A stretch of 64,000 bases of DNA, taken from assembly GCA_964500985.1 (NCBI GenBank), contig CAZCRB010000002.1:36-64035 (forward strand), read 5' to 3'. Within the stretch, counting starts at the first letter, position 1. Each line of letters starts with the position of its first letter. This DNA comes from an uncultured Eubacteriales bacterium (GTDB lineage Bacteria > Actinomycetota > Coriobacteriia > Anaerosomatales > PHET01). Both the position numbers and the translations under genes were made by a program. Shown here one piece after another: positions 30,130-56,192 of this stretch. Below the pieces are notes generated by a model. It worked only from the letters and a program-made list of their open reading frames with translations. It had not been told where the DNA came from and made no database searches.

Positions 30130-33100
30130 CTATCGGCTATACGATTTCGCCACCAGCGGTAGCGTGTGGCAGTCCGCGGTGCACGAGCCGCCCGTGCCGC
30201 TCGGTGTCCAGGTGAACGGGCCGCTGCCGGCCCAGTATCGGAGCAGATGTTCCTGCTGAGGTACGCCGTGGCTCGCATGGCACGCCTCGCAGGCGACGCC
30301 GAACGATGCGTGCCGCGCGTGCAGCGGGGTGCCGGGCGAACCCGACGCATAGAAGCCGCTACGGTCGCCGGCCACGCCGTCATCGGCGCCGGTGCCGTAC
30401 ACCGATTCCTTGTGGCACCGGTAGCACAGCATGCCGCTGTCGGCAGAGGTCGCCCCACGATACGGGCGCTGCAGCAGCGGAGCGTCCGGCGAGCGATGCG
30501 GTCCGCTCGGGCCGGAAGCCGATGAGGTCCCATGACACGAACCGCACCGGATCGTGCCACCGACCGCCGCCGCGGTCGTCATGGTCGAGCCGGTGGCGTT
30601 CGTCGACGTGTCCAGCGATCCCTCGATCGGATGGTACGAGGCGCCCAGCGTGTTGACCTGTGAAGCGATGCGGGTACGCGCGGGGGCCGCGGGATCCCAC
30701 TTCGAGTGGCAGAAGAAGCACGCCTCGTACTCCGCGGCTGCGCGGACGGGACCCGTCAGGGTCAGCGTGGTTGCCGTCGAGTTCTCGACCGCGACGCCAC
30801 GGGCACCGATCAACTCGCCGGGCAGGGCCGCCGTGTCGGCGGCGCCCGACTTGGCCAGATGCGAGTCATGGCAGTCGGCGCACTCGACATGGCGCGAGGC
30901 AGGGCTCGACTCGGTCGAGACGTGCGATGCGACCGCCGCACCCACCGGGTGCCGCGACGGCCCCACAGCGCCGAGGTCGGCCACGAGCACGGTCGCCGCG
31001 GTGCCGCCGACCTCCGCGCCACCGGCCGTCAACGCGAAGGCGGGGGTGACGTCGGTACCGGACCCGTTGGGCGTGTAGACAGCGATACGCGGCTCGACCG
31101 CGGTGGACGTACGAGTGAAGGCGCCGGCGAGCGCAACGAGCAGGTCTTTGTCGCCATCGCCGTCAGCGTCGCCAAACGCCAATGACGCGGCGTTGGTCCG
31201 CGTCCCGGTTGAGTGGTTGACCGCCGACCCGAACCCGCCACCGGCCGCCTGCTCGATGACGCGCACGCCGCTCGCGCCGTTCGAATCGGCATAGGCGAGC
31301 GCCACTTCGGCCCCGGACGTTCCCGCGGGCGTCACCCCATCGAGTATGTCGGCCGCAAGGATCGCGGTCGGCACGGTGCCCGCCGGCAACGGTCCGCCGC
31401 CATCGGCATAACGGGCGCCGGAGCCGTCGAAGAACGAGACCGTCTCGGAAGGAACCGCCGAGCTCACGCTGGCCACCGCGATCTCGCGCTTCGCGGAATC
31501 GCCGTCGAGGTCCGCGACCGCCACGGCGACCGGCTGGTCGTTGGTCGGATACGTGCCGCTCTCGACGGGCGTACCCGTCACGGCGGAGTAGATGCTCAGC
31601 TCGTCAGTGGCCTCAAAGGTGAGCACCAGCTCGGACTGCACTCCGGCGGCGATGTCGCCCGCCGCGATGGCGGAGGGCACCCGGGACAGCGGCAGCGAAC
31701 CGACGGCGTCGAGTGAGCCGCCACTGAGCCTCAAGACCCTGAGGACATCGTCCGCGGTCACGACGATGACCTCGGGCAGGCCGCTCGGATCCGCTTCCAC
31801 GTCGGCGACGGCAAGCAGCCTGACCACGGAACCGCCGGGCACCGAGAGCAACCGCGAACCGATGCCGCCCGCCTCGGCGTCCCGCTCAACGAGCGCGAGC
31901 TGGGCTGCGGCGGCGTCGGCGACGAGCAGCTCCTTGACGCCGTCCCCATCGATGTCGCCGGCTGCGGCGGCACCGACCGCCGAGACCGGCGCGACCTCAC
32001 GCGGTCCGACCGGCTCTGCGGCCGCCGTCGCGATGCGGGCGAACACCTGGACGCGCCCGTACTGCGCGCTCGCAGCCGAGCCCCAGGCGCCGATCACCTC
32101 GAGGCCCGGGGTGGTGGGCGCATAGCGCAGCGCCGCGAAGTCCGTGGATGCCGGACCGGACGAATCGTGGCAGGAGTCGCACAACGCACGGCCCTGCGCC
32201 TGGAGCATGTCGGGAACCACGGAACCGGACGCATCGGTGGCACCCATGACCGCGTGACAGGCCTGGCATTCGCCGACGCGGCGCGACATTGGCGCGTCCA
32301 CCCACTCGCCCGCAACGGTCACCGTCGCCGTCGAGGAGGCGTGGGACGAGCCCGGATACGTCGCCGCACCGGACCAAGTCCCGAGCGAGGCTCCGTGACA
32401 GCCGAAGCACTGGGTGCGGTCGTTGGCGGTCACGGTGGCCGGCACCGAGGCCGACGGGGTCGTCAGGCGCGTCCTCAGCGAGGGTGCCACCGGCGATCCG
32501 TGGGGGTCGTGACACGCCGAGCAGACGATCGCCGTGCCGCCGGCCGCCGTCGGGATGCGCGAGTGCGGGGTCTGCTGCCAGACGGCGAGTCCGGGAAACG
32601 CGCTGCCCGGGCGCACGCCGTGGCAGGTACCGCAGACGGCATCACCCGAGAAGACCAGCGTGCCGGTCGCCGTCGCCGTCCGCAACAGTGCCGCATACGG
32701 GGTACCACTGGCGTTTCGTGCCGCGCCGTGGGTGTCGTGGCACGTGCTGCACTGCTTGGAGGGCCCAAAGGCCGAGGCCGACGGCTCAAGCGAGTGACCG
32801 GACGCCGTTGAGAACGCGCTTTCGACGTCGGAACCGGAGCCCAGAGCATCGACCCCATGACACGAGAAGCACAGCCCCGTGTCGCCAAGGCCCCCCGAAC
32901 CCACGAGCAGCGCGTTGCGCGACGGGGAGTCGGAAGTGGGCTTGAACGCGGTGGCGTCATTGAACGACGTGTGGCCCCGATGACACATGGCGCAGGTGTC
33001 GGTGTCGGCCGATGTCGACACGTGTGGCGGGGCGACGGTGCCGGCGGTCGCAGCACTCGGGAACGCGATCGCGCATGCGACCGCAAACACGGCGAAGGCC

Positions 33101-33153
33101 GCGAGGGCTGAACCCCCGCGGCCTAGAGCGTATGTCCGAGTGCGTGGCGTCAC
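30130..33153 (-). CDS. Secreted multiheme cytochrome c with central FG-GAP/VCBS beta-propeller (~14 hemes)
   Basis: Signal peptide; 8 CxxCH, then repeats (GDIDGDGVKELLV, ADLDGDSAKREIAV, GDADGDGDKDLLV), then 5 CxxCH and 1 CxxxCH. Confidence 0.88.
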   Translation of the reverse strand: MTPRTRTYALGRGGSALAAFAVFAVACAIAFPSAATAGTVAPPHVSTSADTDTCAMCHRGHTSFNDATAFKPTSDSPSRNALLVGSGGLGDTGLCFSCHGVDALGSGSDVESAFSTASGHSLEPSASAFGPSKQCSTCHDTHGAARNASGTPYAALLRTATATGTLVFSGDAVCGTCHGVRPGSAFPGLAVWQQTPHSRIPTAAGGTAIVCSACHDPHGSPVAPSLRTRLTTPSASVPATVTANDRTQCFGCHGASLGTWSGAATYPGSSHASSTATVTVAGEWVDAPMSRRVGECQACHAVMGATDASGSVVPDMLQAQGRALCDSCHDSSGPASTDFAALRYAPTTPGLEVIGAWGSAASAQYGRVQVFARIATAAAEPVGPREVAPVSAVGAAAAGDIDGDGVKELLVADAAAAQLALVERDAEAGGIGSRLLSVPGGSVVRLLAVADVEADPSGLPEVIVVTADDVLRVLRLSGGSLDAVGSLPLSRVPSAIAAGDIAAGVQSELVLTFEATDELSIYSAVTGTPVESGTYPTNDQPVAVAVADLDGDSAKREIAVASVSSAVPSETVSFFDGSGARYADGGGPLPAGTVPTAILAADILDGVTPAGTSGAEVALAYADSNGASGVRVIEQAAGGGFGSAVNHSTGTRTNAASLAFGDADGDGDKDLLVALAGAFTRTSTAVEPRIAVYTPNGSGTDVTPAFALTAGGAEVGGTAATVLVADLGAVGPSRHPVGAAVASHVSTESSPASRHVECADCHDSHLAKSGAADTAALPGELIGARGVAVENSTATTLTLTGPVRAAAEYEACFFCHSKWDPAAPARTRIASQVNTLGASYHPIEGSLDTSTNATGSTMTTAAAVGGTIRCGSCHGTSSASGPSGPHRSPDAPLLQRPYRGATSADSGMLCYRCHKESVYGTGADDGVAGDRSGFYASGSPGTPLHARHASFGVACEACHASHGVPQQEHLLRYWAGSGPFTWTPSGTGGSCTADCHTLPLVAKSYSR

Positions 33154-34535
33154 GCGCCAGCGCCCTCCTTCTCGGCGCCAAGCGCCGTTTCGACATCTGT
33201 CGGGTCAGGGACTCGTCCCTGCTCGGCGGCAACATCCACCGCTCTCATAAGCGCGGCATATGCCAACTGCGGCTCAGTGTCCTCAGGAATCGCACTCGCG
33301 ATACGGTCGGCCCACGAAGGCGCGGCGCCATCGAGCGATGCGCGCATGAGCCAGGCCACCGCCGCAGCGGCGCTATAGGGCGAATCAGCCATGCCGACGT
33401 CGTTGAGTTCGGTGAACTCCCACGACACCTTCAGGCCGGACGCGAACGCCTCTTCGACCTCCGGAGCGACCCCCGGCGGAATCAGCAGAACGAGGATCGC
33501 GACGCCCTTGAGGGCCCAGCGAAGCTCCATGAGCGTGCTGGCGATCTTGGCACGCAGGTCGGCGGGGGCGCCGGTGAACATGTCGAACCGGTCGAGGATG
33601 ATCGCGGTCGCACGATAGCGGGCCTGCGCGTAACGGAGGATGGCGGCGAGGGTCTTTGTCGGGGCCTTGGAGATCTTGAGCTCCTCGGCCATCGAACCGG
33701 TGCCCTGGGCGACGTAAGCGCGGATACCGCGGGCCACGACCGGCGACAGCGACTCCTCGGTTGCAGCCACGACGTAGTCGCGCACGAGCGCATCGACGTC
33801 GACCGTCTCGCCCGGCGGCAGCTCCCGCTCGCGCACCTCACCGAGGGGCGTGACGAACGCATCGGCCATCGGGTCGTCGAGCGCGGCCTCGTCATCGGGG
33901 ACGGCACCGTCCTCGCCGGGGTCCGAGTCGAGGCGGTCGAGGCGGGCGGTGGCCACCCGCATGAGCACTTCCGTGTCCTCCGCGCCCTCGCGGGTCATCT
34001 CGGGCGCGCCGAACACGCGTGCGACGAAGGCGGCAGGATCGGCGTCCAGCTCTGCGATCAGCGCAGTGACGTCCGCGTCCACGAGAAGCGCCGACCACTG
34101 GTCCAGCGACGAGACCGGTTCCACGAGCATCTTGCGAGTCCAAGCGGCCAGCATCAGGTCGCACCCACCGCCGCTGACGCGCTCCGCAGCCGCGGAGAGC
34201 ACCGCACGGACGCGACCCACGCGCATCATGTCCAGCGGCACGTAGACTCCGAGAACGCCCTCGACCGGGTCCTGCTCGGCGAGGGACTTCATGACCTGGG
34301 CAAGGGCGGCGACCGGATAGAACGGCGGCACCTTGTCGGTCTTGGCAACGGCGATCGGCCGCATCTCTGCCTCGTCGGCGGTGCGGTCGATTGCCGCGAG
34401 AACGCCGAGCGCGGCGGAGCGGACGCTCAGCCGATTACCCATGGGATCGTACTCGCCGGCCTCGGTCGGCGTGAAGGGATTCGCGACGAGTCCGAGCGAA
34501 CGAGGGCCGCCCGTGGCGGCATCGAGTTCAGGCAC
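33150..34535 (-). CDS. Hypothetical protein, possibly degenerate AAA/ExeA-like ATPase
   Basis: GLVANPF N-terminus and Walker-B-like IILDRFD, but no Walker A; GTGA overlap with the next gene. Confidence 0.6.
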   Translation of the reverse strand: MPELDAATGGPRSLGLVANPFTPTEAGEYDPMGNRLSVRSAALGVLAAIDRTADEAEMRPIAVAKTDKVPPFYPVAALAQVMKSLAEQDPVEGVLGVYVPLDMMRVGRVRAVLSAAAERVSGGGCDLMLAAWTRKMLVEPVSSLDQWSALLVDADVTALIAELDADPAAFVARVFGAPEMTREGAEDTEVLMRVATARLDRLDSDPGEDGAVPDDEAALDDPMADAFVTPLGEVRERELPPGETVDVDALVRDYVVAATEESLSPVVARGIRAYVAQGTGSMAEELKISKAPTKTLAAILRYAQARYRATAIILDRFDMFTGAPADLRAKIASTLMELRWALKGVAILVLLIPPGVAPEVEEAFASGLKVSWEFTELNDVGMADSPYSAAAAVAWLMRASLDGAAPSWADRIASAIPEDTEPQLAYAALMRAVDVAAEQGRVPDPTDVETALGAEKEGAGA

Positions 34536-34769: not shown

Positions 34770-36062
34770 CTACTTGTTGTGGCAGCGCTCGCACACGCCG
34801 CGGTTGTCGGTGCGCAGAAGCGCGCTCGACACGTTCGGGGTGACGCCGGCCTTGCCACCAACGAGCGTGGTGGTGGGCTCGACGGTCCACGTAACGACTG
34901 CGGTCGGGTGATTCACGAGGCGGGCATTGGCCCAACCGCTCATCTGAGCAGCGGTGCCGTGCGCACGGTGGCACGTCAGGCAACCGAGGTTGTCCTGAAG
35001 CTCGTACTCACCGCGAGCGGCCGTGCTGTTGGGACGGCGCTCGAGCGGCAGAACGCTCGAGGTGACCGCGTCGCTACCCCAGCCGTTGAGCTGGGTCACC
35101 GTGACCGGGGCCACGTTGACAGGGTGGCGGTGGCGAGCACGCGCGCCGACCGAAGCGGTCCCGCCGGTCACGCTGAGCGTGCCGTTGGCATCGCGAGCGA
35201 CCGTGCCGTTGGACTCGAACTGGCCGTAGTCCAGCGTGCCGGTGCGATCGTCGTACTGGGTGTGGCAAGCCGCACACCAGGTCGACATCGAACGATAGGC
35301 GGTACCCGAGTAGCCAGCCGGGAACTTGAACGCGTACTCCGCGGTCGTGTAGTTCGGGCGATACGACGCCATCTGGGTCGCGCCGGGGTTGTGCTTGAGC
35401 CAGCCGCCGTTGATCGCCGAGGCGTTCGAGTTGACGGGGTAGCCCTGCTCAGCCGAGAAGACGAACGGCTGGGGGGTGTCGCCGTTGTAACCACCGACGG
35501 TGACACCGTTGACCGTGTCCTTCAGCAGGCGGTAGTTCGACGAACCGTGCGGATCGTGGCAACCGGTGCAGGTGAGGTTCGTGCCGCCGGAAGCGGAGGA
35601 ACCCGAGCCCCACATCGGATCGGTGGCCGCACCCTTGTCCATGTCGTGCATGGAGGTCGAGATGCCGGTGTTGAACGCACCACCGTTCAGGCCGCCGAGG
35701 AACGCGGAGTTGGTCTCATACATGATCGAGCCGCCCGCGGTCTGAGTCGCAGACCCGGAAGGGCCGGAGTCGAAGAGGCCCATCTCTACGTTGGTCGAAG
35801 CGCCCGGAGCACCGTCGCCGTGGCAGGCGTAGCAGAACTCCTCCATCGTCTGCGCAGATGACACGAGCAGAGCGCTGTGGTCATTGCCCGCAACGTCTTC
35901 CCATGACAGGTTCGAGAACGAGGTGTGAGCGCGGTGACAGCCGGCGCACGCGTCGGTGTCCAGTGCATAGCCGCCGTGCGGTCCGAAGTTGGCGAACGCA
36001 GAACCGGCGGTCGCGAAGAGCGCTACAACGCTGATCGCGAGGATGATTGCTAGTTTCTTCAC
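34770..36062 (-). CDS. Secreted OmcS-like hexaheme cytochrome c (hydrogenase module)
   Basis: Sec signal peptide; 6 CxxCH in 430 aa; HGG..CAGCHRAH, CHDPHG..YRLL, MSTWCAACH, RHP, CLTCHRAH; C-terminal CERCHNK. Confidence 0.82.
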   Translation of the reverse strand: MKKLAIILAISVVALFATAGSAFANFGPHGGYALDTDACAGCHRAHTSFSNLSWEDVAGNDHSALLVSSAQTMEEFCYACHGDGAPGASTNVEMGLFDSGPSGSATQTAGGSIMYETNSAFLGGLNGGAFNTGISTSMHDMDKGAATDPMWGSGSSASGGTNLTCTGCHDPHGSSNYRLLKDTVNGVTVGGYNGDTPQPFVFSAEQGYPVNSNASAINGGWLKHNPGATQMASYRPNYTTAEYAFKFPAGYSGTAYRSMSTWCAACHTQYDDRTGTLDYGQFESNGTVARDANGTLSVTGGTASVGARARHRHPVNVAPVTVTQLNGWGSDAVTSSVLPLERRPNSTAARGEYELQDNLGCLTCHRAHGTAAQMSGWANARLVNHPTAVVTWTVEPTTTLVGGKAGVTPNVSSALLRTDNRGVCERCHNK

Positions 36063-36079
36063 TCAGTTCACCCCCTTCT

Positions 36080-38236
36080 CTAGTGGACCGCGCACGCGAT
36101 GCACGGATCGAAGGACTGGGCAACACGCAGGGCCTCAACGCCACCACCGGCACCGCCGGCGATCGGGGCACCAGCACCACCCTTGGCCGCAGTCTTGGTC
36201 AGAGAGTACTCGACGTTGAGCATCGACTGCTCCATCGGGCCCTCGACGCCGCTGTGGTCCTTGGGCGATGCGTTCCAGGTGGTCGGCACGATGCACTGGT
36301 AGCGATCGATCTTACCCGCGGTGATCGTGCACATGTGCATGAGAGCACCACGCGGAGCCTCGGTCGCACCAAAGCCCTCGGTCGTACCGGGGTTCGGGGC
36401 CATCTGGTAGTACGAGTCGGCGCCCACCGGCAGAATGCTGAGCTGCTTGAGCCAGCCCCCGTCGGCGAACGTCACGGGCAGCGCGGCGGTTGCCGGAGCT
36501 GCGACGGCGCCGATCATCTGCTGGATCAGCACGAGCGACTCGATCGCGCGGGCGCGCAGGCGGTCCATGTTGGACAGCCCGGCCTTGAGACCGAGTACCC
36601 AGTCAGCCACGGGGCCGGTGATGACCGCGTGAGCGTGCTGGTAGGCCGTGACGATCGTGGCCTTGTCGAGACCGGAGATGACCGTGTCGTCGACCACGAG
36701 GTCGGGGCCGCCACCCGCGAGGCCGCCGACAACCGTCAGCGTGGCCACGCCGGAACGGACACACGCGACCGCGAGGTCGGGGTGGATCAGCTTGGGCTCG
36801 AGGCCGGTGACCGCACCGTCGACCTTCTTGTACGCGGCGTAGCCGGTGATCCCGGGCGCAGCGACGGTCGAGGCCAGGGTCTGGCCGCCCTTGAAGATGC
36901 CGTTGACGGCCAGGCGCGCGAGCGGCCCGACCTCCATCGGGTTGCCGTTCCAGCGCGGGGCCTTGAGCCAGGAGTACTTGGCGTCATCGGTGCGCAGCGG
37001 AGCGGTGCGGACCTCGGTGCGGGGGTTCGTGATGTCGGTCGCCGCATCGATGACGGCGGTGCCGTCGGCGTTGAGGGCCGTGACCGAACCCTGATAGCGC
37101 GAGTACGTGATGTGCTCACGCAGGTTGTTGTGCACGTCGGTCTTCGAGATGAACGACTTGGTGCCGCCAGCCAGGTAGGTGGCCTTGAGCATGAAGCCGC
37201 GGCCGATACCCAGCGTGCCGTTGGTCTGCGGGAACGCACCCCATGCGAGGAAGTTGCCGCAGCCGCCGCCCCAGCCGGTGTTGGTAGCGTCCGGATCGCC
37301 AGCGGCGCTCTTGTTGCCAAGCGCCCACAGCGTCGGGTACGCGCCCTTCAGCAGGGTGGCGTTGTCGAGGTTGTCGTAGTTCGGGTACAGCGCGCCGAGC
37401 GCAAGGAACAGCGGCACGTACTCGCGAACGATGAAGTCACCGATCTCCGTCATCATCGAGCGGAAGCGGGTGATCTTGGTCGACAGGTCCTCGTTCTTGT
37501 TGGTGGTGACGCCACCGCCGACGAAGCACGAGGTCATCGGCATACGTCCGGCGAACATCGCGCCGGCCTCGAAGGTGAGGCGACGGATGCGCAGCGCCTT
37601 GACGTACTGCTTGATGACCGCCGACCACAGCTCCTTGGAGAAGCCCTCGACATCGACCGGCAGCGTGCCATGGGCAGCGTCAGCCGGATTGGCAGCCGCA
37701 CCGTTGCCCTGCGAGAGCAGGAGCGGGTGGTAGAAGCTGTCGTCGAAGTACGGCGTCCACGGCGGGACGTTGGGGCCCTGAACGTAGCTCGGGGCGGCAA
37801 GGTGATACATGTGCGTGATGCTCGACATGAGGAACTCGGCCGAGAGCACGAGGTTGCGGACGTGAACCGCCTTCTCCGGGATGCCCTGACCGGTCGGCAC
37901 GGGTACCGTGCTGCTGCCGTCGGTGCTCGAGAGCTGGTTGCCGCCCTTGACCCACGTCTGGAAGCAGTCGTTGTAGCCGAGGACCGAATCGACCGCGAAG
38001 GTCGAGGCCTGGCCGTGCGGTACCGGACACACACCGCAGATGCGCTGCGTGAACGTGATCGCATCGTTGATGTCGCGGCCGATGAGGAAGTTCTCAAAGC
38101 CACGCCACAGGTTGCCGTGGACGTCGGCGCCGGTTACTTTCTCGGCGTCGGTGCGACCGGCGATCGGGGCGGTGGTGAGCTTCACGCCGAGGTGACCCTC
38201 GATGCGTGAAATAGGATCGACTTCCTTGATTGCCAT
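36080..38236 (-). CDS. [NiFe] hydrogenase large subunit, group 1 (1a/Hys-like, Cys form)
   Basis: DPISRIEGH; L1 QRICGVCPVPH; EAPRGAL; L2 FDPCIACAVH followed directly by the stop codon. Confidence 0.95.
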   Translation of the reverse strand: MAIKEVDPISRIEGHLGVKLTTAPIAGRTDAEKVTGADVHGNLWRGFENFLIGRDINDAITFTQRICGVCPVPHGQASTFAVDSVLGYNDCFQTWVKGGNQLSSTDGSSTVPVPTGQGIPEKAVHVRNLVLSAEFLMSSITHMYHLAAPSYVQGPNVPPWTPYFDDSFYHPLLLSQGNGAAANPADAAHGTLPVDVEGFSKELWSAVIKQYVKALRIRRLTFEAGAMFAGRMPMTSCFVGGGVTTNKNEDLSTKITRFRSMMTEIGDFIVREYVPLFLALGALYPNYDNLDNATLLKGAYPTLWALGNKSAAGDPDATNTGWGGGCGNFLAWGAFPQTNGTLGIGRGFMLKATYLAGGTKSFISKTDVHNNLREHITYSRYQGSVTALNADGTAVIDAATDITNPRTEVRTAPLRTDDAKYSWLKAPRWNGNPMEVGPLARLAVNGIFKGGQTLASTVAAPGITGYAAYKKVDGAVTGLEPKLIHPDLAVACVRSGVATLTVVGGLAGGGPDLVVDDTVISGLDKATIVTAYQHAHAVITGPVADWVLGLKAGLSNMDRLRARAIESLVLIQQMIGAVAAPATAALPVTFADGGWLKQLSILPVGADSYYQMAPNPGTTEGFGATEAPRGALMHMCTITAGKIDRYQCIVPTTWNASPKDHSGVEGPMEQSMLNVEYSLTKTAAKGGAGAPIAGGAGGGVEALRVAQSFDPCIACAVH

Positions 38237-38260: not shown

Positions 38261-39685
38261 TTAGAGGATCACGAACGGCAGGAAGGCGTCCGGATAGCCC
38301 TTTTCCGTGCAAGCCATGCACGGGTGGCCACCGGCGACGCAGTTGCCGCCCTTGTTTCCGTTGGTTCCACCGACTCCGTAGTCGAGCGTGGAGTCGTTGC
38401 GCGGGTTCTGGCCGTTCCAGCCGTGAGGACCACAGAGAGTCATGGTCTGCGGGCCCTTGCAGCCGATGAGCTGCAGGCAGCCCGGCTCGCCCGGCTTGGT
38501 CGCGAACACGCCGTTGAGGGCGTCCTGGTAGCGCTTGCAGTACGGACCGTGCAGCGGCACACCGTAGACAGCCTTGAGGCGGCGCTGCTTGTCGACCGCG
38601 CTCGCGTTGATCGACACGTTCAGTCCGGCGCCATTGCGGTGCAGGATCTTGAGCGGGCCGTCAGCGCCGACTGCGGACTGGGTGAAGTCCACGAGCCACG
38701 CAACGACTGTCAGCACGAACCACCACGGGTTGGTCGGGCAACCGGGGACCGCGACGACCTTGTCGGCGGCAGCGATACCCGCCGCGCCGCACTTGGTCCG
38801 CAGGAACTCCTCGGTGCCAAGAGCACCGGTCTGGCCCTCGCCCAGGATCGGCGAGACACATGCCGGGTATCCACCGAAGCACGCACACTGGCCGATCGGG
38901 ATGATCGCGGCGCACTTGGGGTGGGTGGCGAGATCCTTGACGGTCTCGTCAAACGAATGCTCGGCGGTGCCGGCCTCGTTCATGCCGATGGAACACCACG
39001 CGGCGCCATCGTGCAGCGCGCCGTCGCCGGCGTTCCAGTAGCCGCCCTCGTCCTTGGGCTGAATCGAGCCCTCGACGACGAGAACGAACGGGGTGGAGGC
39101 GCCGGCCGTGTCCTTGCGGAGCTGGTCGAGCCACTGGTACGCGAGGTCGCCGCCCATACCCATGACCGTCTCATGATACTGAAGGTCGATGAAGTCGATG
39201 AGCACGTCGGCGATCGTCGCGACGAAAGCGCTGTTGCCGCCATTGGTGCCGGCAGACTCGAAGTTCACGCCGGTACCCGAAAGGGCACTCGCGGCGCTGG
39301 ACTCGAAGATGGTGCGGTGACCGTACGGGTGATCCGCACCGGTCTCCTTGGTGATGCCGAGAGCGGCCGCAGTGGCCGAGCCGGCTACGTTCCCGCCGTC
39401 GCCGTTGCCACCAACGGCGTAGTCGAGAGCCTTCAGCGTAGAGATGCTGGTGCCCTCGATAGCGGTGCCTCTGACGTCTTCGAAGAGACCCAGAAGCGAG
39501 GTCGAGCAGCCCGTGCACTCCGCGCCATGAACCCAAACCACCTTGGGCTTGTCGGTCCATGCGCCCGTCCATACGGAGCCGTGAGCAAATGCTTCGGCGA
39601 CCTTTGCGAGGTCGACTTGGCTCATGCCCATGGCCGCTGCCAGGGTGCCCAACCGGGTGACAAACTGTCGCCTGGTTATCGCCAT
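38261..39685 (-). CDS. [NiFe] hydrogenase small subunit with Tat signal
   Basis: ITRRQF twin-arginine motif; HGAECTGCS, GQCACFGG, PGCP, HGPYC, GCKGP and GHPCMAC motifs. Confidence 0.95.
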   Translation of the reverse strand: MAITRRQFVTRLGTLAAAMGMSQVDLAKVAEAFAHGSVWTGAWTDKPKVVWVHGAECTGCSTSLLGLFEDVRGTAIEGTSISTLKALDYAVGGNGDGGNVAGSATAAALGITKETGADHPYGHRTIFESSAASALSGTGVNFESAGTNGGNSAFVATIADVLIDFIDLQYHETVMGMGGDLAYQWLDQLRKDTAGASTPFVLVVEGSIQPKDEGGYWNAGDGALHDGAAWCSIGMNEAGTAEHSFDETVKDLATHPKCAAIIPIGQCACFGGYPACVSPILGEGQTGALGTEEFLRTKCGAAGIAAADKVVAVPGCPTNPWWFVLTVVAWLVDFTQSAVGADGPLKILHRNGAGLNVSINASAVDKQRRLKAVYGVPLHGPYCKRYQDALNGVFATKPGEPGCLQLIGCKGPQTMTLCGPHGWNGQNPRNDSTLDYGVGGTNGNKGGNCVAGGHPCMACTEKGYPDAFLPFVIL

Positions 39686-39944
39686 GCTGTCCCTAACCTC
39701 CTTCACACACTCTGAAGTGCTGGTTTTCCGTTGCCGAGTGGAGCGGATGAAGAAAGGCCACCTCCTTTACGCGAGCCCCATCTCGGGTTCGGTCGGAGGC
39801 GGCCTTGTCATCAGGACAGCGAAGACACCGAACGAGGGACACTGCGCCCCGTGTGGGGAATGGTGTCCTGGTCTCGTTCGAGGGCCCGATTGCCGGCTCC
39901 GACCCGTCGTACGTGATATTCGGTTTTTCAAGGCGTAACACCGT

Positions 39945-40003
39945 TTGTAACGGTTGTTACATTACCTCTGGCTAATCCTATCGCGCCCGTCCGAGGCGGT
40001 CAA
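39945..40003 (-). promoter_or_regulatory. Hydrogenase operon promoter with palindromic operator
   Basis: TTGACC (40003-39998) N17 TAGGAT (39980-39975); operator TTGTAACGGTTGTTACAT at 39945-39962. Confidence 0.75.
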
Positions 40004-40041: not shown

Positions 40042-41559
40042 TCAGCTGGTCGGCGGCTGGTCACCGGCGCGATCCGCGTACTTCTTGGAGAGCGGTGTCC
40101 GCGCGATGAACTCCTCGCTGTCGACCACGGGTGCCTCAAGGACACGTGCGATACGACGCAGCTCGGCGTCCTCGGTGCAGAAGAGCTTCGCGCGCTGTGC
40201 GACCGCCATGATGCCCGCGTCTCGCCAACTCAGCTCATAGCGCTCCTGCAGTGCGCGTGCATCCGACTCGGAGAACTCGACGGGATTCAGCAGTTCGGCG
40301 AGCGAGATGCCGTCCTGGGCGAGGCCCTTGAGGTCCTCGTAGTCCTCCGTCATGACCTCCCAGCGCACGCGGCGGATGTCCATGCGCGCGATCTCGCCTG
40401 CGGCGAACAGCGCGTACACGAAGTCAGGCGTGGCGAAGTAGCGGCGGCGGCGCAGCAACAGCAGCAGCGGCAGGAGCAGCAGCGGCGAGAGGCACAGCAG
40501 CCACCCGGTCGGCGTTGTGGGCGTCGGAATCGGGTTGGCGGCCGCCGGCCAGCCCCACACCTGGATGCGCCCGTTGGCGGTGTCGGCGATGAATATGCGG
40601 CGGCGGGCGTCGACCGACGTGTCGTTGGGGTAGCTGAACTGCCCCTCCAGCACGCCATGCTCGCCGAAGGAGACGACCTTCTCGGCCTTGCGAGCGTCCC
40701 AGATGGTGCCGTCGTGGGCGAGCGTGTCGATGACCACCAGACGGCGCGGCTCTTCCTTCTTGAGCTTGGGCAGGAAGTCGAACCCGCGCGGGAGTCCCTG
40801 CGTGATGACCATCCGCTTGTACTCGCCCGCCCGGTCGAAGACCTGGATGCGGCGGTTGTTGGAATCGGCGACCCAGACCTCGTTACCGATGACCTTGATC
40901 GAGTTGGGGAACTGGAAGACCCCGGGGCCCTCCGACGCCTCGTTGACGAGGCCGGCGGTGCCCACGCTACGACGGAACGTGCCGTCGGGCGCGAAGATGA
41001 GCATGCGGTGGCCGTTGAGTATCTCGGTCACGTAGAGGGTGCCGTCGGGCGCAAAGTCCAAGGCGACGGGCGCCCACTGGAAGCCCTGCGTATCGAACTT
41101 GGGAAGCTGGTCGGCGGGCAGCTTGGGATCGAACTGCTTCTTGAACTTGCCGTCCTTCGAGAAGATGAACACGCCCTTCTTGCGGCGGTCCGTCACGTAG
41201 TAGTCCCCCGTCTTGGGGTGCTGCGCGACGTAGAGCGGGACGAGCAGATTGCCCTTGCCCCAAGTCGCGATGTGCGTGCCGCGAGGCGTGAACACCTCGA
41301 TGGCGCCCTTGCGCGAATCGGTCACGAGGACCTTGTTGTCGGCGGAGAGCACCCCGAGCGGCCTGACCAGCTGGCTCTGCCCGGCACCCGAGAAGGAGTA
41401 CAGGTACTGCGGGGCGGGCAGCAGCTCGGCTTGGTTGAAGTCGATCTGCACACCGATCGTCCGCGTGTTGCGGTAGTTGACGTACGCGGCGCCGATGAGC
41501 GCCAGCAAGACGATGAGCGCGACTATCGCGATGATCTGACGGATTCGCCTGCGAGACAT
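40042..41559 (-). CDS. NHL-repeat beta-propeller protein with two TM anchors and a PIN-like C-terminal tail (copy 1)
   Basis: NHL repeats (FQFPNSI..VADSNNRRIQVF; FSYPND..IADTANGRIQV); TM at both ends; tail RDAGIMAVA..CTEDAELRR. Confidence 0.85.
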   Translation of the reverse strand: MSRRRIRQIIAIVALIVLLALIGAAYVNYRNTRTIGVQIDFNQAELLPAPQYLYSFSGAGQSQLVRPLGVLSADNKVLVTDSRKGAIEVFTPRGTHIATWGKGNLLVPLYVAQHPKTGDYYVTDRRKKGVFIFSKDGKFKKQFDPKLPADQLPKFDTQGFQWAPVALDFAPDGTLYVTEILNGHRMLIFAPDGTFRRSVGTAGLVNEASEGPGVFQFPNSIKVIGNEVWVADSNNRRIQVFDRAGEYKRMVITQGLPRGFDFLPKLKKEEPRRLVVIDTLAHDGTIWDARKAEKVVSFGEHGVLEGQFSYPNDTSVDARRRIFIADTANGRIQVWGWPAAANPIPTPTTPTGWLLCLSPLLLLPLLLLLRRRRYFATPDFVYALFAAGEIARMDIRRVRWEVMTEDYEDLKGLAQDGISLAELLNPVEFSESDARALQERYELSWRDAGIMAVAQRAKLFCTEDAELRRIARVLEAPVVDSEEFIARTPLSKKYADRAGDQPPTS

Positions 41560-41601: not shown

Positions 41602-42636
41602 CTACTTGCCGAGTGACGCCTGGAGCTGCGCGATCTCTTTGTTGCTCGTGTCGAGCTTCGCGGCCTCGGTGAGGACCTGCTTCGCGCCCTTCTTGTCGCC
41701 CTTGGCGATGAGGATCTTGGCGTGAAGTATCGCAGCATCGACATCGCTCGGCTCGAGCGCGCGTGCGAGCAGGACCGCCTCGACCGCCTCGTCCAAGCGC
41801 TTGTCGGCGTAGGCGGCCTGGGCCTGCTTCAGCGCGTCTTCGCCGCTACCGAGCTTCTCGAGGGCCTTGCGCGGCAGGTCGGCCTCGGGGGCGAGGTCCG
41901 CGGCTTTGCGCAGGTGCACGGCCGAGTTGATCTTGTCGTTGCGCGCCAGGAGGATGATCCCGTAAAGGTAGTGGGCCTCAGCGTAGTTCGGATCGAAGGC
42001 GAGGGCGGCATCAAGCTGCTCGAGGGCGGCGTCATCGTCCTCGAGCCCGTGGAGGGACTGCGCGAGGAGGTAGTAGGTGTCGGACGCGTCCTTGCGGATG
42101 CGCAACGACGCCTTGAAGAAGCCGGCGGCATCCTCGTAGCGCTTGTCGTCGAGGGCGATCTCGCCCAGATGGAACAGCGCGGTCTCGCGGCGCTGGTTGA
42201 TGTTCTCCATCGTCTGGCCCTCGGTCAGCTCGACGACCTTGGTGAAGTAGCGCTCTGCGTTGGCGGTGTCCTTGGTCTCCATGGCGACGAGGCCGAGGTC
42301 GAGGTACGCGCCCGTGTGCTTGTTGTCTAGCTTGATGGCGGCCTTGAACTGCTCGGTGGCATCACGGTAGACGCCGGCCGAAGCGAGCGCCTCACCGTAG
42401 CGAACGCGGGCCGCCGCGCTGTTGGGGTTCTTCTTGACGAAGTTGCGGAGCTCGACCAGCGCGCGCTGGGCCGGGGTGGCCGTCGCCTCGACGCGAGTGC
42501 TCTGCCAGATGGTGTAGCCGAACAGCGCGGCAAGGCCGAGGACTCCGGCGACGAGCGCGATGATGACGTAGCGAAGAAGCGAATCGGTCCGGTCGGAACG
42601 GACGTCGGGCGTGGCGCCCGATGCGTGTTCTGTCAT
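41602..42636 (-). CDS. Membrane-anchored TPR protein (copy 1)
   Basis: N-terminal TM; multiple TPR repeats (ALAFDPNYAEAHYLYG). Confidence 0.88.
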   Translation of the reverse strand: MTEHASGATPDVRSDRTDSLLRYVIIALVAGVLGLAALFGYTIWQSTRVEATATPAQRALVELRNFVKKNPNSAAARVRYGEALASAGVYRDATEQFKAAIKLDNKHTGAYLDLGLVAMETKDTANAERYFTKVVELTEGQTMENINQRRETALFHLGEIALDDKRYEDAAGFFKASLRIRKDASDTYYLLAQSLHGLEDDDAALEQLDAALAFDPNYAEAHYLYGIILLARNDKINSAVHLRKAADLAPEADLPRKALEKLGSGEDALKQAQAAYADKRLDEAVEAVLLARALEPSDVDAAILHAKILIAKGDKKGAKQVLTEAAKLDTSNKEIAQLQASLGK

Positions 42637-50400: not shown

Positions 50401-51283
50401 TGCGGGGGTCGATGACGATGAAGCGCGCAGGCTTCTTGTTGGCACGGTCACCCGAGAAGTACTGCTTGGGGAAGCGTGCGCGGTTGACGTGCGCCATGCA
50501 CGCCGGGTGGTTCTCAGTGGGGTTGGCACCCCACGCGATAACGAGCGAAGCATTGGCGATGTCCGCCCAATGGTTCGTCATCGCGCCTCGTCCGAATGCG
50601 GCGGCCAGACCGGCCACCGTGGACGAGTGTCATATACGGGCCTGATGCTCGACGTTGCTGGTACCGAAGTTCGCGATGATCTTGCGGTACAGGTAGTTCG
50701 ACTCGTTGTTCATGTGCGAACTACCGAGGAACGCAACGGTCTTGCTGTTGTACTTCATCGAGCCCGGCACCCAGTTGGTGGCGTCGGCGTCACGCGCCGT
50801 CTTGAGGCGAGTGGCGATATCGGCCAGCGCGGTGTCGATCGGCACGGCGGACCAAGGGCCATCGCCGGTGCGCTTGTACGCGATCGGGTTGCTGGTGCCG
50901 TCGGCCGCGAACACGTTGTCGACCGGGTGCGTGCCCGTGAACGCGCCGATACGGCGCGGGTTGTTCACGAGCTGGAGCGCCCCTGCGCCCTTGGCACACA
51001 GGCCGCCCGAGTTCATGGGCGACTCGAAGTCACCGTAGACGTCTACAACGACCGTCGGGTCGGATTTCTTGACGACGACGCGCTGCCCGCAGCTTGCGGA
51101 GCAGTACGGGCACGTCGTCGTGGTGATCTGGTAGTCAGCTGAGTTCTCGTACGCGGACGCCTTTTCAGGATCGTACGCGAACTCGAGGCCGCAACCGACC
51201 ACCGCGGTGGCAGCTGCGGCGGTTTTGATGAAGTCACGCCTGGTGACCCCACCAACCGGCTGCCCGGTGTCCCTAGTTGCCAT
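47402..51283 (-). CDS. fdhA: Selenocysteine-containing Mo/W formate dehydrogenase alpha subunit (Tat-exported, 1293 aa, Sec218)
   Basis: ORFs 50630..51283 and 47402..50617 are in frame across TGA 50632-50630 in EHQARI-U-HSSTVAGLAAAFGRGAMTNHW. Tat motif TRRDF; CPYC..C..LCAKG; ALRGIHNVQG; EFKACLCRLEK. Confidence 0.95.
50587..50627 (-). other. SECIS element of fdhA
   Basis: CTCGTCC-A-CGGTGGCC-GGTCT-GGCCGCCG-CATTC-GGACGAG directly after the UGA; GGUCU loop as in the fdhF-type SECIS. Confidence 0.88.
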
Positions 51284-56167: not shown

Positions 56168-56192
56168 GAAGTCTGCCGCAGCTCCTTTGTCG

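What the first reader, a model, noticed from the sequence alone, without database searches (positions are those of the whole stretch)
34770..36062. OmcS-like hexaheme 1 keeps all six distal His positions, including the filament-forming one
Motif order, size (~430 aa) and termini match G. sulfurreducens OmcS as I recall it: H-x-G..CxxCHxxH, LL..CxxCH, a lone His, CxxCHDPHG..YR-hydrophobic-L, MSxWCxxCH, RHP, CLxCHRAH, and a terminal CxxCHxK. In OmcS the His of the first CxxCHxxH ligates a heme of the neighbouring subunit; CAGCHRAH preserves that position. There is no TM or sortase anchor. Caveat: CxxCHxxH is common in doubled-CXXCH cytochromes, so polymerisation is an inference.
Basis: partly seen in the sequence, partly recalled or inferred. 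Interest (0 to 1): 0.88.

Follow-up and report, generated by a model that had tools for sequence, protein, structure and literature searches.

The report
OmcS-type hexaheme cytochrome wired to hydrogenase
This gene encodes a secreted six-heme cytochrome that is a distant but real relative of the Geobacter "nanowire" protein OmcS. In this Gram-positive actinobacterium and its relatives it is nearly always the third gene of a hydrogenase operon, so it most likely carries electrons between H2 oxidation and the cell surface; whether it forms filaments is still untested.

Summary
Window 34770-36062 (-) is a 430-aa ORF with a Sec signal peptide, exactly 12 Cys in six CxxCH motifs, and no membrane or sortase anchor.

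- **Homology:** the single sequence does not find OmcS. A family profile hits OmcS (6EF8) as the best solved structure, full length (E 3e-10), and a profile-profile comparison gives 99.6%.
- **Distal His:** in a joint 136-sequence alignment, five of the six non-motif His (H46, 139, 172, 313, 368) are invariant and H29 is at least 90% conserved. H46 aligns with OmcS His16.
the gene lies 17 nt downstream of an anchorless, Tat-exported [NiFe] hydrogenase (HydS-HydL) and is followed by a strong hairpin. A 38%-identical paralog (45142-46446) follows a selenocysteine formate dehydrogenase (FdhAB). This layout recurs in 19 of 21 Coriobacteriia/Actinomycetota loci, and the two types form separate clades.

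Best reading: an OmcS-superfamily cytochrome that is the dedicated redox partner of extracytoplasmic hydrogenase (the paralog serves FDH) and feeds cell-surface multihemes. OmcS-like polymerisation is plausible (about 0.4) but untested: a pTM 0.79 AlphaFold model gave no Foldseek hit, and only one of four Geobacter paralogs is known to form wires. A wall-spanning OmcS-like polymer was already proposed for Thermincola CwcA. Verdict: a new variant of a known kind.

The parts
34770..36062 (-). OmcS-like hexaheme c-type cytochrome 1 (430 aa), the finding itself
   Evidence: ORF and six CxxCH motifs. Family profile against PDB: best hit OmcS 6EF8, E 3.1e-10. hhalign against the OmcS family: 99.6%.
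35991..36062 (-). Sec-type signal peptide (residues 1-24, probable cleavage AFA|NF). The predicted mature N-terminus NFGPHGGY is near-invariant in the family.
   Evidence: Hydrophobic segment at residues 4-22 only. Conservation of A22-S48. The cleavage site is read from the sequence and was not predicted with a dedicated tool.
35925..35927 (-). Codon of His46 (in CAGCHRAH), the equivalent of OmcS His16, the inter-subunit heme ligand in OmcS filaments
   Evidence: Aligned to OmcS H16. Invariant in 136 sequences of both families. The role of His16 in OmcS is from my own knowledge of Wang et al. 2019; inter-subunit His ligation of heme 5 is confirmed in general terms by PMC12307469 and PMC7911101.
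34699..34733 (-). GC-rich hairpin 36 nt after the stop codon, the likely operon terminator (no U-tract)
   Evidence: RNA fold of -45.1 kcal/mol, z = -5.7 against shuffles. Sequence.
36063..36079 (-). 17-nt intergenic spacer with a Shine-Dalgarno-like sequence between hydL and the cytochrome gene
36080..38236 (-). [NiFe] hydrogenase large subunit (718 aa), ending at DPCIACAVH
   Evidence: Pfam NiFeSe_Hases, E 6e-79. Closest solved structures are Desulfovibrio periplasmic [NiFeSe]/[NiFe] hydrogenases.
38261..39706 (-). [NiFe] hydrogenase small subunit (481 aa) with Tat motif RRQFV and no C-terminal membrane anchor
   Evidence: Pfam Oxidored_q6 and NiFe_hyd_SSU_C. Hydropathy scan.
39975..40003 (-). 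Promoter-like site upstream of hydS (TTGACC-17-TAGGAT)
   Evidence: Consensus scan only.
45142..46446 (-). OmcS-like hexaheme 2 (434 aa), a paralog 38% identical, 3 nt downstream of fdhB
   Evidence: FDH-linked clade.
46450..47388 (-). FdhB-like 4Fe-4S subunit with a hydrophobic C-terminal tail
   Evidence: Pfam Fer4_11 and related families. Sequence.
47402..51283 (-). FdhA-like molybdopterin oxidoreductase with a Tat signal and an in-frame TGA (selenocysteine) at 50630-50632
   Evidence: Pfam Molybdop_Fe4S4, Molybdopterin, Molydop_binding and TAT_signal. TGA in the context EHQARI-U-HSS.
40042..41559 (-). NHL-repeat beta-propeller membrane protein 1 (two TM segments), upstream of hydS
   Evidence: Pfam NHL, E 1e-19. 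TM segments. Conserved position in related loci.
41602..42636 (-). TPR membrane protein 1
   Evidence: Pfam TPR families, plus a weak CcmH/CycH TPR hit. Conserved position.
51843..54405 (-). Second TPR (53392-54405) and NHL (51843-53402) pair, upstream of fdhA
33150..34535 (-). Conserved 461-aa protein of unknown function, downstream of the cytochrome and with its own promoter-like site
   Evidence: No Pfam, NCBIfam or PDB match. Found downstream of the cytochrome in 8 loci.
30130..33153 (-). 13-heme cytochrome with FG-GAP repeats (1007 aa), a candidate surface reductase
   Evidence: Conserved in related loci.
54551..59345 (-). Multiheme module: cytochrome b (58491-59345), 6-heme (57539-58612), 11-heme (56193-57560) and 20-heme (54551-56167) proteins
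   Evidence: Found upstream of the TPR-NHL pair in many related loci.

Best explanation
The gene encodes a Sec-exported, anchorless hexaheme c-type cytochrome of the OmcS superfamily. It is co-transcribed with, and serves as the dedicated redox partner of, a Tat-exported soluble [NiFe] hydrogenase (HydS-HydL) that has neither a membrane anchor nor a cytochrome b.

Proposed mechanism:
1. H2 is oxidised outside the cytoplasmic membrane.
2. Electrons leave the distal Fe-S cluster of HydS and enter the six bis-His hemes of the cytochrome.
3. [quoted passage not shown]

The flow may run in reverse on a cathode. The paralog at 45142-46446 does the same job for the selenocysteine formate dehydrogenase FdhAB.

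**Shown:**
- OmcS-superfamily homology.
- Conservation of all six heme motifs and six candidate distal His.
- The export signal and the lack of an anchor.
- The operon structure, its conservation, and the split into hydrogenase-linked and FDH-linked clades.

**Inferred:**
- Direct electron transfer from the hydrogenase.
- The downstream route.
- Head-to-tail oligomerisation through His46-heme 5' ligation, as in OmcS, which would let the protein span the Gram-positive wall. I put this last step at about 0.4.
For: **Homology to OmcS**
- The family profile finds OmcS 6EF8 as the top PDB hit, full length, E 3.1e-10; next is OmcE 7TFS at E 0.025.
- hhalign of A1 against A2 gives 99.6% probability, E 7e-25.
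- tblastn gives 24-25% identity over 407-454 aa to Geobacter omcS, a better match than to omcT or the GSU2501-like gene.
- In the joint alignment H46, H139, H172, H313 and H368 are invariant, and H29 is at least 90% conserved.
- Motif spacing is nearly the same in both proteins. C(heme 1) to C(heme 2) is 38 residues in both, and heme 3 to heme 4 is 98 against 99.

**Operon structure**
- The gap after hydL is 17 nt and holds a Shine-Dalgarno-like sequence.
- A -45 kcal/mol hairpin follows the stop codon.
- A promoter-like site lies before hydS.

**Partner role**
- HydS has a Tat motif and no TM segment. HydL has no TM segment. There is no cytochrome b in the operon.
- The closest solved hydrogenases are the Desulfovibrio periplasmic enzymes. 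From established knowledge, these use a soluble multiheme cytochrome c3.

**Synteny**
- HydS-HydL-hexaheme occurs in 7 loci, and FdhA-FdhB-hexaheme in 12 loci, out of 21 Coriobacteriia/Actinomycetota genomes.
- The two types form separate clades.
- The same two-cassette spacing is seen in the HGW-Actinobacteria-7 locus tags.

**Expression and physiology**
- In strain EMTCatB1 (my locus L011) the FDH genes 1c0408/1c0407 'with' the multiheme cytochrome 1c0406 are among the top 10% of transcripts on a working biocathode (PMC7943316).
- Cultured Anaerosomatales grow only on H2 or formate. One is an obligate Fe(III) reducer with no detectable quinones, and its appendages appear only when ferrihydrite is present (PMC9686372).
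Against: - No biochemical data exist for any member of this family.
- One close relative (L004) is not next to a hydrogenase.
- Gene adjacency does not prove direct electron transfer.
- If both H2 oxidation and Fe(III) reduction happen outside the membrane, the pathway as drawn moves no charge across it. How energy is conserved is unexplained.
- The structural comparison failed. Foldseek returned nothing significant, not even OmcS, for either model, so fold identity rests on sequence profiles alone.
- On polymerisation: only OmcS among the four Geobacter paralogs is known to form a wire.
- The Geobacter companion genes that were retrieved have no homologs here, apart from a weak match to an NHL-like protein.
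Confidence: 0.7

Rival explanations
1. It is first of all a true OmcS-type nanowire subunit. Monomers stack head to tail, with His46 of one subunit ligating heme 5 of the next. The resulting filament spans the peptidoglycan and extends beyond it. The hydrogenase and FDH are simply the charging modules at its base.
For: - His46 is invariant and aligns with OmcS His16.
- The whole ligand set and the motif spacing are kept.
- The protein and HydSL both lack any anchor in a monoderm cell, so something must retain them.
- The AlphaFold model is confident except for residues 21-50, the N-terminal arm carrying heme 1 and His46. This is what one would expect if that arm docks on a neighbouring subunit.
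- Thermincola CwcA, an OmcS-like hexaheme, was insoluble on expression and was modelled as a wall-spanning polymer (PMC7911101).
- Parvivirga makes thin appendages only when grown on ferrihydrite.
- An NHL-type propeller gene sits next to omcS in Geobacter as well.
Against: - There is no structural or experimental test.
- Low pLDDT in a heme-less model has other possible causes.
- The Geobacter paralogs OmcT, OmcJ and GSU2501 are not known to polymerise.
- Two enzyme-specific paralog clades fit specific docking partners better than one bulk filament.
- A one-gene-per-operon position next to the enzyme subunits is typical of a redox subunit.
- Homologs of the YncE-like, 718-aa and LpoB-like genes of the Geobacter block were not found.
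Confidence: 0.4
2. It is a non-polymerising cytochrome: either a soluble shuttle or a tightly bound third subunit of HydSL. It would be the functional analogue of Desulfovibrio type I cytochrome c3 or the cytochrome of FdhABC3. His46 would ligate a heme within the same chain, or across a dimer.
For: - Operon position and 1:1:1 gene layout.
- Enzyme-specific paralogs.
- The hydrogenase is most similar to periplasmic enzymes that use c3.
- CxxCHxxH is a common doubled motif (Pfam Paired_CXXCH_1). The second His of the same motif at heme 5 (H368) is presumably intramolecular.
Against: - The homology is to OmcS, not to cytochrome c3. There are only weak, partial c3/c7 Pfam hits.
- If the linear OmcS heme chain is kept, a His three residues after the heme 1 ligand cannot reach heme 5 of its own chain. 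This is an inference from the OmcS architecture.
- A freely soluble protein would be lost from a monoderm cell.
Confidence: 0.45
3. The physiological direction is the reverse. The cytochrome delivers electrons taken up from a cathode, Fe(0), or a syntrophic partner to the hydrogenase and FDH, which then release H2 and formate outside the cell.
For: - The ortholog-bearing strain EMTCatB1 dominates a methane-producing biocathode.
- It expresses the FDH-cytochrome genes highly there, and its authors propose direct electron uptake (PMC7943316).
- Both [NiFe] hydrogenases and FDHs are reversible enzymes (established knowledge).
Against: - Cultured Anaerosomatales consume H2 and formate with Fe(III) or sulfur compounds as acceptor.
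- Nothing in the sequence fixes the direction.
- This concerns direction of flow, not the identity of the protein, so it is compatible with the main explanation.
Confidence: 0.3
4. The resemblance to OmcS is a chance or convergent product of heme-motif-rich sequence. The protein would be an unrelated generic multiheme cytochrome.
For: - The single sequence does not detect OmcS.
- Pfam and NCBIfam give only generic multiheme hits.
- Foldseek found no match.
Against: - The profile hit is full length, collinear, and covers all six motifs at E 3e-10.
- hhalign gives 99.6%.
- Conserved non-heme positions are shared across both families: G128, F130, G173, R178, G190, P197, P339, and the W before heme 4.
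- Motif spacing is nearly identical.
Confidence: 0.02

Closest known systems
Geobacter sulfurreducens OmcS (GSU2504; PDB 6EF8/6NEF), the hexaheme nanowire subunit
   Same: - Similar size (430 aa against 432-434 aa for the precursor).
- A signal peptide followed by a His-bearing N-terminus.
- Six CxxCH motifs in the same order and with nearly the same spacing.
- Shared signatures CxxCHxxH at hemes 1 and 5, CxxCHDPHG, W-CxxCH, RHP, and a C-terminal CxxCHxK.
- Six conserved distal His, including the His16 equivalent.
- Significant profile homology.
   Different: - Only 24-25% identity, not detectable with the single sequence.
- About 32 extra residues between heme 4 and the RHP motif, and shorter spacers after it.
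- The host is a monoderm actinobacterium with no outer membrane.
- The gene lies in a hydrogenase operon rather than an omcS-omcT-GSU2501 cluster with its companion block.
- Filament formation has not been shown.
Thermincola CwcA (TherJR_1122 / Tfer_0075), the cell-wall hexaheme of a Gram-positive Fe(III) reducer
   Same: - A hexaheme, OmcS-like cytochrome in a monoderm bacterium.
- It has been proposed, from a homology model, to stack into a wall-spanning polymer in which heme 5 is ligated by a His of the next subunit (PMC7911101).
   Different: - CwcA is placed in a quinol-oxidising chain (ImdcA-PdcA-CwcA-OcwA), not in hydrogenase or FDH operons.
- It comes from a different phylum (Bacillota).
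Desulfovibrio type I tetraheme cytochrome c3 and the cytochrome subunit of FdhABC3. These are partners of periplasmic hydrogenases and formate dehydrogenases (established knowledge).
   Same: - This is a functional analogy. A multiheme c-type cytochrome accepts electrons from a soluble, Tat-exported hydrogenase or FDH that lacks a membrane subunit, and in some cases is encoded next to it.
- The hydrogenase here is most similar to those Desulfovibrio enzymes.
   Different: - It is not homologous to cytochrome c3 (only weak, partial Pfam c3/c7 hits).
- It has six hemes and is about 4 times larger.
- It belongs to the OmcS superfamily.
Geobacter OmcT, OmcJ and the GSU2501-like hexahemes (OmcS paralogs)
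   Same: Same superfamily and the same six-heme layout. tblastn also detects them.
   Different: - They match less well than OmcS itself (E 2.5e-7 and 1e-4, against 1.3e-9 for OmcS).
- Their functions are unknown, and they are not known to polymerise (PMC12977616).
- This is the main caution against inferring filaments from homology.

Membership tests
OmcS superfamily (hexaheme cytochromes related to PDB 6EF8) | Six CxxCH motifs in conserved order and spacing in a protein of about 430 aa | tested here: met
   C-to-C spacings are 38/88/98/98/63 here against 38/93/99/89/72 in OmcS.
OmcS superfamily (hexaheme cytochromes related to PDB 6EF8) | Statistically significant sequence homology over the whole chain | tested here: met
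   Profile against PDB: 6EF8 is the best hit, E 3.1e-10, positions 38-428 against 8-406. hhalign: 99.6%, E 7e-25, over 161-430. Single-sequence phmmer was negative.
OmcS superfamily (hexaheme cytochromes related to PDB 6EF8) | Six conserved non-motif His (candidate distal ligands), including the His16 equivalent | tested here: met
   H29, H46, H139, H172, H313 and H368 are invariant in A1. They match OmcS-family H2, H16, H110, H147, H257 and H335. In the joint alignment five are invariant and H29 is at least 90% conserved.
OmcS superfamily (hexaheme cytochromes related to PDB 6EF8) | Same three-dimensional fold and linear heme packing | tested here: inconclusive
   The first AlphaFold2 model was poor (pLDDT 53.6). 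The second was good (pLDDT 78.5, pTM 0.79). Foldseek against the PDB found no significant match for either, not even OmcS. The models lack hemes and are mostly coil, and I had no coordinates for a direct superposition.
OmcS nanowire (functional class: polymerised cytochrome filament) | Head-to-tail homopolymer with an inter-subunit His-heme bond | not testable with these tools
   No multimer or heme-aware predictor was available, and no experiment. The only supporting facts are conservation of His46 and low model confidence for the N-terminal arm at residues 21-50.
OmcS nanowire (functional class: polymerised cytochrome filament) | Linked companion genes for maturation and secretion (the Geobacter GSU2500-2493 block; PMC12977616) | tested here: not met
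   tblastn of all the window's cassette proteins against the Geobacter locus found only the hexahemes and a weak match between the window's NHL proteins (best NHL2, E 9e-6) and the 315-aa gene upstream of omcS. Only the first three genes of the block were in the retrieved locus, and a monoderm cell would not need outer-membrane parts.
Dedicated cytochrome partner of an extracytoplasmic hydrogenase or FDH (functional class) | Encoded in the same operon, directly after the catalytic subunits, and conserved across genomes | tested here: met
   A 17-nt gap with a Shine-Dalgarno-like sequence, and a hairpin after the stop codon. 7 hydrogenase-linked and 12 FDH-linked loci out of 21, with one exception, L004. 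Separate clades.
Dedicated cytochrome partner of an extracytoplasmic hydrogenase or FDH (functional class) | The enzyme is exported and lacks its own membrane or quinone-reducing subunit | tested here: met
   HydS has the Tat motif RRQFV and no C-terminal TM segment. There is no cytochrome b gene in the hyd operon.
Dedicated cytochrome partner of an extracytoplasmic hydrogenase or FDH (functional class) | Direct electron transfer between the enzyme and the cytochrome | not testable with these tools
   This needs purified proteins or genetics.
Class III cytochrome c3 family | Homology to tetraheme c3 (Pfam Cytochrom_CIII / c3_2) | tested here: not met
   Only a partial Cytochrom_c3_2 hit: 29 bits, with no stretch passing on its own. 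It may work like c3 but is not a member of the family.
Thermincola CwcA family | Sequence homology to TherJR_1122 / Tfer_0075 | not tested
The comparison rests on the description in PMC7911101.

The most novel reading that the evidence does not exclude
Uncultured Coriobacteriia (Anaerosomatales-like) build OmcS-type cytochrome filaments that are plugged directly into anchorless extracellular hydrogenase and selenocysteine formate dehydrogenase. There would be one enzyme-specific paralog for each enzyme. Such 'enzyme-charged nanowires' would span the Gram-positive wall and couple H2 and formate directly, and reversibly, to minerals, electrodes or partner cells, without any quinone pool.
Probability: 0.3. 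Interest if true: 0.85.

Novelty: new variant of a known kind. Interest (0 to 1): 0.62.

Why it matters
OmcS-type cytochromes are the model for biological long-range electron transport. So far they have been studied almost only in Gram-negative Geobacter-like bacteria, where small periplasmic cytochromes charge them.

This work finds a large, unnamed branch of the same superfamily: at least 1400 clusters at 50% identity, apparently centred on subsurface and sediment Coriobacteriia. In this branch the hexaheme gene is fused at operon level to a hydrogenase or a formate dehydrogenase. That has three consequences.

- It gives a concrete, testable route for how monoderm, apparently quinone-free H2- and formate-oxidising Fe(III) reducers and biocathode actinobacteria move electrons across a thick wall.
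- It offers a natural enzyme-cytochrome pair for H2 or formate bioelectrocatalysis.
- It provides two enzyme-specific paralogs with which to ask what decides polymerisation versus partner docking in this family.

The literature I could search contains no paper linking OmcS to Coriobacteriia or OPB41. The biocathode study noted the FDH-associated cytochrome but not its relation to OmcS.

Tried and rejected
- **Single-sequence phmmer against the PDB:** only noise from octaheme nitrite reductases, and no OmcS. The profile search was needed.
- **Pfam and NCBIfam:** only generic doubled-CXXCH, MtrC-domain and c3/c7 hits. NCBIfam has no OmcS model, since even Geobacter OmcS hits none. The name 'c-type cytochrome OmcS' on one Coriobacteriia homolog (P0085) is therefore not HMM-based evidence.
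- **AlphaFold2 with a 37-sequence alignment:** pLDDT 53.6, unusable. The Foldseek search on it was meaningless.
- **AlphaFold2 with the 136-sequence two-family alignment:** a much better model, but Foldseek again found nothing above noise. I treat this as inconclusive, not as evidence against the fold.
- **Geobacter omcS neighbourhood, fetched to look for shared assembly genes:** none were found beyond a weak NHL-type propeller.
- **Cluster look-up of intermediate representatives to trace the taxonomic spread:** almost all are unnamed metagenome proteins.
- **Search for tandem two-module fusions that would mimic a filament dimer:** none were found. 75 of 88 full-length representatives have six hemes, and size variation comes from loop insertions.
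- **A cultured, named carrier such as Parvivirga or Anaerosoma:** not found among the listed hits.
- **The 461-aa downstream protein:** no Pfam, NCBIfam or PDB match.
- **Wang et al. 2019 and Shen et al. 2025:** neither could be read. The His16/His332 detail rests on my own knowledge and on the general statements.
Full report
**1. The observation**

The coordinates 34770-36062 delimit one minus-strand ORF of 430 codons (GTG start, TAG stop). A Shine-Dalgarno-like GAAGGGGGTG lies about 8 nt upstream.

The protein has 12 cysteines, all in six CxxCH motifs, at residues 39-43, 77-81, 165-169, 263-267, 361-365 and 424-428.
- H29-G-G near the mature N-terminus
- CAGCHRAH46
- ALL...CYACH
- a lone H139
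- CTGCHDPH172G...NYRLL
- MSTWCAACH
- RH313P
- CLTCHRAH368
- C-terminal CERCHNK

The only hydrophobic stretch is the signal peptide (residues 4-22, probable cleavage AFA|NF). There is no LPxTG motif. GC3 is 0.83, typical of real genes in this 67% GC window.

**2. Is it related to OmcS?**

The single sequence does not find OmcS in the PDB. Pfam and NCBIfam return only generic multiheme domains, and NCBIfam has no OmcS model at all.

The protein does belong to a large family. One search gave 1163 hits. A profile search gave 1432 clusters at 50% identity, 179 of them below E 1e-30. Where the hits carry a name, it is Coriobacteriia, Anaerosomatales or Actinobacteria MAGs.

A profile of 37 members (A1) finds OmcS (6EF8/6NEF) as the best of all solved structures. 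The alignment is collinear, covering profile 38-428 against OmcS 8-406 and matching all six heme motifs, at E 3.1e-10. The next hit is the tetraheme nanowire protein OmcE (7TFS), E 0.025.

I rebuilt OmcS residues 8-406 from that tool output and collected its own family (alignment A2). I then compared the two profiles. hhalign gives 99.6% probability, E 7e-25, over residues 161-430. Direct tblastn against a Geobacter genome locus gives 24.8% identity over 407 aa for this protein, and 24.2% over 454 aa for its paralog. Both match omcS better than omcT or the GSU2501-like gene.

**3. The distal histidines**

Within the Coriobacteriia family, the invariant His outside the heme motifs are H29, H46, H139, H172, H313 and H368. 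Within the OmcS family, the conserved non-motif His are mature H2 (at least 90%), H16, H110, H147, H257 and H335.

In a joint 136-sequence alignment of both families, H46, H139, H172, H313 and H368 are invariant and H29 is at least 90% conserved. Several non-heme positions are conserved too: G128, F130, G173, R178, G190, P197 and P339.

Motif spacing is nearly the same. Heme 1 to heme 2 is 38 residues in both proteins, and heme 3 to heme 4 is 98 against 99. The main difference is about 32 extra residues between heme 4 and the RHP motif.

So the statement [quoted passage not shown] is supported. That His16 ligates heme 5 (proximal His332) of the neighbouring subunit in OmcS is my own recollection of Wang et al. 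2019, which I could not open. Two papers I could read confirm inter-subunit His ligation of heme 5 in OmcS (PMC12307469; PMC7911101). One search confirms that His332 is the proximal His of the fifth motif.

**4. Structure**

The first AlphaFold2 run, with 37 sequences, failed (pLDDT 53.6). The run with the two-family alignment gave pLDDT 78.5 and pTM 0.79.

Foldseek against the PDB found nothing significant for either model, not even OmcS. The models have no hemes and are mostly coil, which is unfavourable for a 3Di search. I had no coordinates for a direct superposition or for measuring His-His pairs. The fold test is therefore inconclusive.

One detail is worth noting. The only long low-confidence segment of the good model is residues 21-50. 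This is the mature N-terminal arm carrying the heme 1 motif and His46. Low confidence there would be expected if the arm packs on a neighbouring subunit, but it has other possible causes.

**5. Context, which changes the picture**

*The hydrogenase operon.* The gene starts 17 nt after the stop of a [NiFe] hydrogenase large subunit (36080-38236). That gene follows the small subunit (38261-39706).
- HydS has a Tat motif (RRQFV) and no C-terminal anchor.
- HydL has no TM segment.
- There is no cytochrome b gene in the operon.
- A promoter-like site precedes hydS.
- A -45 kcal/mol hairpin (z = -5.7) follows the cytochrome's stop codon.
- The next gene has its own promoter-like site.
- The closest solved hydrogenases are the periplasmic [NiFeSe]/[NiFe] enzymes of Desulfovibrio. 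By established knowledge, their physiological acceptor is a soluble multiheme cytochrome c3.

*The FDH operon.* A 38%-identical paralog (45142-46446) sits 3 nt downstream of an FdhB-like Fe-S subunit and a Tat-exported FdhA-like molybdoenzyme. That enzyme contains an in-frame TGA in the canonical selenocysteine context.

*Neighbouring genes.* Each enzyme operon is preceded by a TPR membrane protein and an NHL-propeller membrane protein. Large multiheme cytochromes surround the region: 13-heme with FG-GAP repeats, 20-heme, 11-heme, 6-heme plus cytochrome b, and 22-heme.

**6. Conservation of that context**

A scan of species-representative genomes returned 21 loci, all from Coriobacteriia or Actinomycetota. 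I compared all the window's cassette proteins with these loci by tblastn:
- HydS-HydL-hexaheme occurs in 7 loci (L001-3, L005-7, L013).
- FdhA(Sec)-FdhB-hexaheme occurs in 12 loci (L008-12, L014-15, L017-21).
- Both usually have the TPR-NHL pair and the 20- and 11-heme genes upstream.
- One close relative, L004, stands alone with no hydrogenase nearby.
- L016 has too little upstream sequence to tell.

In a neighbour-joining tree the hydrogenase-linked and FDH-linked hexahemes form separate clades. L013 falls at the base of the FDH clade, and Geobacter OmcS is a distant outgroup.

The MAG HGW-Actinobacteria-7 has both types at the same seven-gene spacing as the window, judging by its locus tags.

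**7. Published support**

- Locus L011 is Coriobacteriaceae sp. EMTCatB1. In that strain the FDH genes 1c0408/1c0407 "with" the multiheme cytochrome 1c0406 are among the top 10% of transcripts on a methane-producing biocathode. The authors propose direct electron uptake (PMC7943316). They did not note the relation to OmcS.
- The cultured Anaerosomatales use only H2 and formate (plus one aromatic acid in one strain). Neither strain has detectable quinones. Parvivirga hydrogeniphila is an obligate Fe(III) reducer whose thin appendages appear only with ferrihydrite. Its multihemes cluster with a molybdopterin oxidoreductase (PMC9686372).

**8. Interpretation**

The best-supported reading is this. 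The protein is an OmcS-superfamily hexaheme that acts as the dedicated electron acceptor (or donor) of an exported, anchorless hydrogenase. Its paralog serves the FDH. Both link these enzymes to wall and surface multihemes for extracellular electron transfer.

What is shown: the homology, the ligand conservation, the export signal, the operon structure and its conservation. What is inferred: direct electron transfer, and the route onward.

Whether the protein also polymerises like OmcS is open, and I estimate about 0.4.
- In favour: invariant His46 and a complete ligand set; no anchor on either the cytochrome or HydSL in a monoderm cell; the floppy N-terminal arm in the model; the CwcA precedent; and the ferrihydrite-induced appendages.
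- Against: only one of the four Geobacter paralogs is known to form a wire, and authors warn that HMMs cannot identify authentic nanowires outside the genus (PMC12977616). Enzyme-specific paralogs suggest docking partners. The retrieved Geobacter companion genes (YncE-like propeller, a 718-aa protein, an LpoB-like protein) have no counterparts here, apart from a weak NHL-type propeller next to omcS.

One problem remains unexplained. If H2 oxidation and Fe(III) reduction both occur outside the membrane, this route alone moves no charge across it. Energy conservation must therefore involve other components, perhaps the cytochrome b-multiheme module.

**9. Comparison and novelty**

In ancestry the protein is a divergent member of the OmcS superfamily. 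In function it works like the cytochrome c3 partners of Desulfovibrio periplasmic hydrogenases and FDHs, to which it is not homologous.

The idea of an OmcS-like, wall-spanning polymer in a Gram-positive bacterium was already put forward for Thermincola CwcA in 2021. That OmcS homologs are widespread is also known (PMC10954620).

As far as the searchable literature shows, what is new is the following (no paper combines OmcS with Coriobacteriia or OPB41):
- a very large actinobacterial branch of the superfamily;
- its fixed operon linkage to a hydrogenase or a selenocysteine FDH;
- its split into enzyme-specific clades.

I rate it a new variant of a known kind, with interest 0.62. If filaments directly charged by these enzymes were demonstrated, the interest would be much higher.

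Noticed in passing
window 50630-50632 (-), within fdhA 47402-51283: There is an in-frame TGA in the context EHQARI-U-HSSTVAGLAAAFGRGAMTNHW. The FdhA-like molybdoenzyme is almost certainly a selenoprotein, and ORF callers split it in two (50630-51283 and 47402-50617). No SECIS element was looked for.
   Followed up: partly
window 36080-38236 (-): The hydrogenase large subunit is unusually long (718 aa, against about 500-600 for solved relatives), with large insertions. It ends exactly at ...DPCIACAVH, without the C-terminal extension that a maturation protease normally removes. No hydrogenase protease or cytochrome b gene lies in the operon.
   Followed up: partly
window 40042-42636 and 51843-54405 (-): The TPR plus NHL-propeller membrane-protein gene pair is duplicated, with one copy ahead of each enzyme-cytochrome operon, and this is conserved in related loci. 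The NHL proteins have an N-terminal TM segment, a propeller, a second TM segment (LLCLSPLLLLPLLLL) and a C-terminal domain of about 130 aa with a weak PIN hit. TPR1 weakly matches the CcmH/CycH apocytochrome-chaperone TPR domain. They might anchor or mature the cytochromes. A weak NHL-type propeller gene also sits directly upstream of omcS in Geobacter (L022 8809-9756).
   Followed up: partly
window 33150-34535 (-): A conserved 461-aa acidic protein with no signal peptide and no Pfam, NCBIfam or PDB match lies directly downstream of the hydrogenase-linked hexaheme in 8 related loci. Its function is unknown.
   Followed up: partly
window 42767-45045 (-) and 29280-30074 (-): Downstream of the FDH-linked hexaheme lies a polytopic membrane protein with many predicted hydrophobic segments (43600-45045, no Pfam hit) and a probable lipoprotein with an LAGC lipobox (inside 42767-43825). 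The lipoprotein is distantly related to the 264-aa protein at 29280-30074. Both are conserved in related loci.
   Followed up: no
window 14093-26566 (-): A complete Che-type signalling cluster is present (CheR, MCP, CheW, CheY, CheB, CheA, CheC, CheD). It is followed by a GAF-GGDEF diguanylate cyclase, a peptidoglycan-binding protein and a PilT/T2SSE-type ATPase. This is notable because the cultured relatives are described as non-motile but as bearing pili-like appendages.
   Followed up: no
window 4275-6446 (-) and 30130-33153 (-): There is a 22-heme cytochrome (723 aa, with an N-terminal TM segment) and a 13-heme cytochrome with FG-GAP propeller repeats (1007 aa). The latter is conserved near both cassette types and is a candidate terminal surface reductase.
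   Followed up: partly
window 34699-34733 (-): A very stable GC-rich hairpin (-45 kcal/mol, z = -5.7) without a U-tract lies 36 nt after the cytochrome's stop codon. A TGCACA-16-TATAAT promoter-like site follows it at 34621-34648.
   Followed up: yes
window about 59500-64000 (-): By eye, the right-hand end of the window encodes molybdenum-cofactor genes (a MoaA-like radical-SAM protein at 62550-63641 and a MoaC-like protein at 62047-62751) and a class V aminotransferase or cysteine desulfurase-like gene (59781-60962). This fits the nearby molybdoenzyme. None of these was checked with a tool.
   Followed up: no
L004 10001-11350: One close relative of the hydrogenase-linked hexaheme (53.5% identical) sits in a different neighbourhood, with no hydrogenase, FDH, TPR or NHL genes within 10 kb upstream. 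It is the only exception to the synteny.
   Followed up: partly
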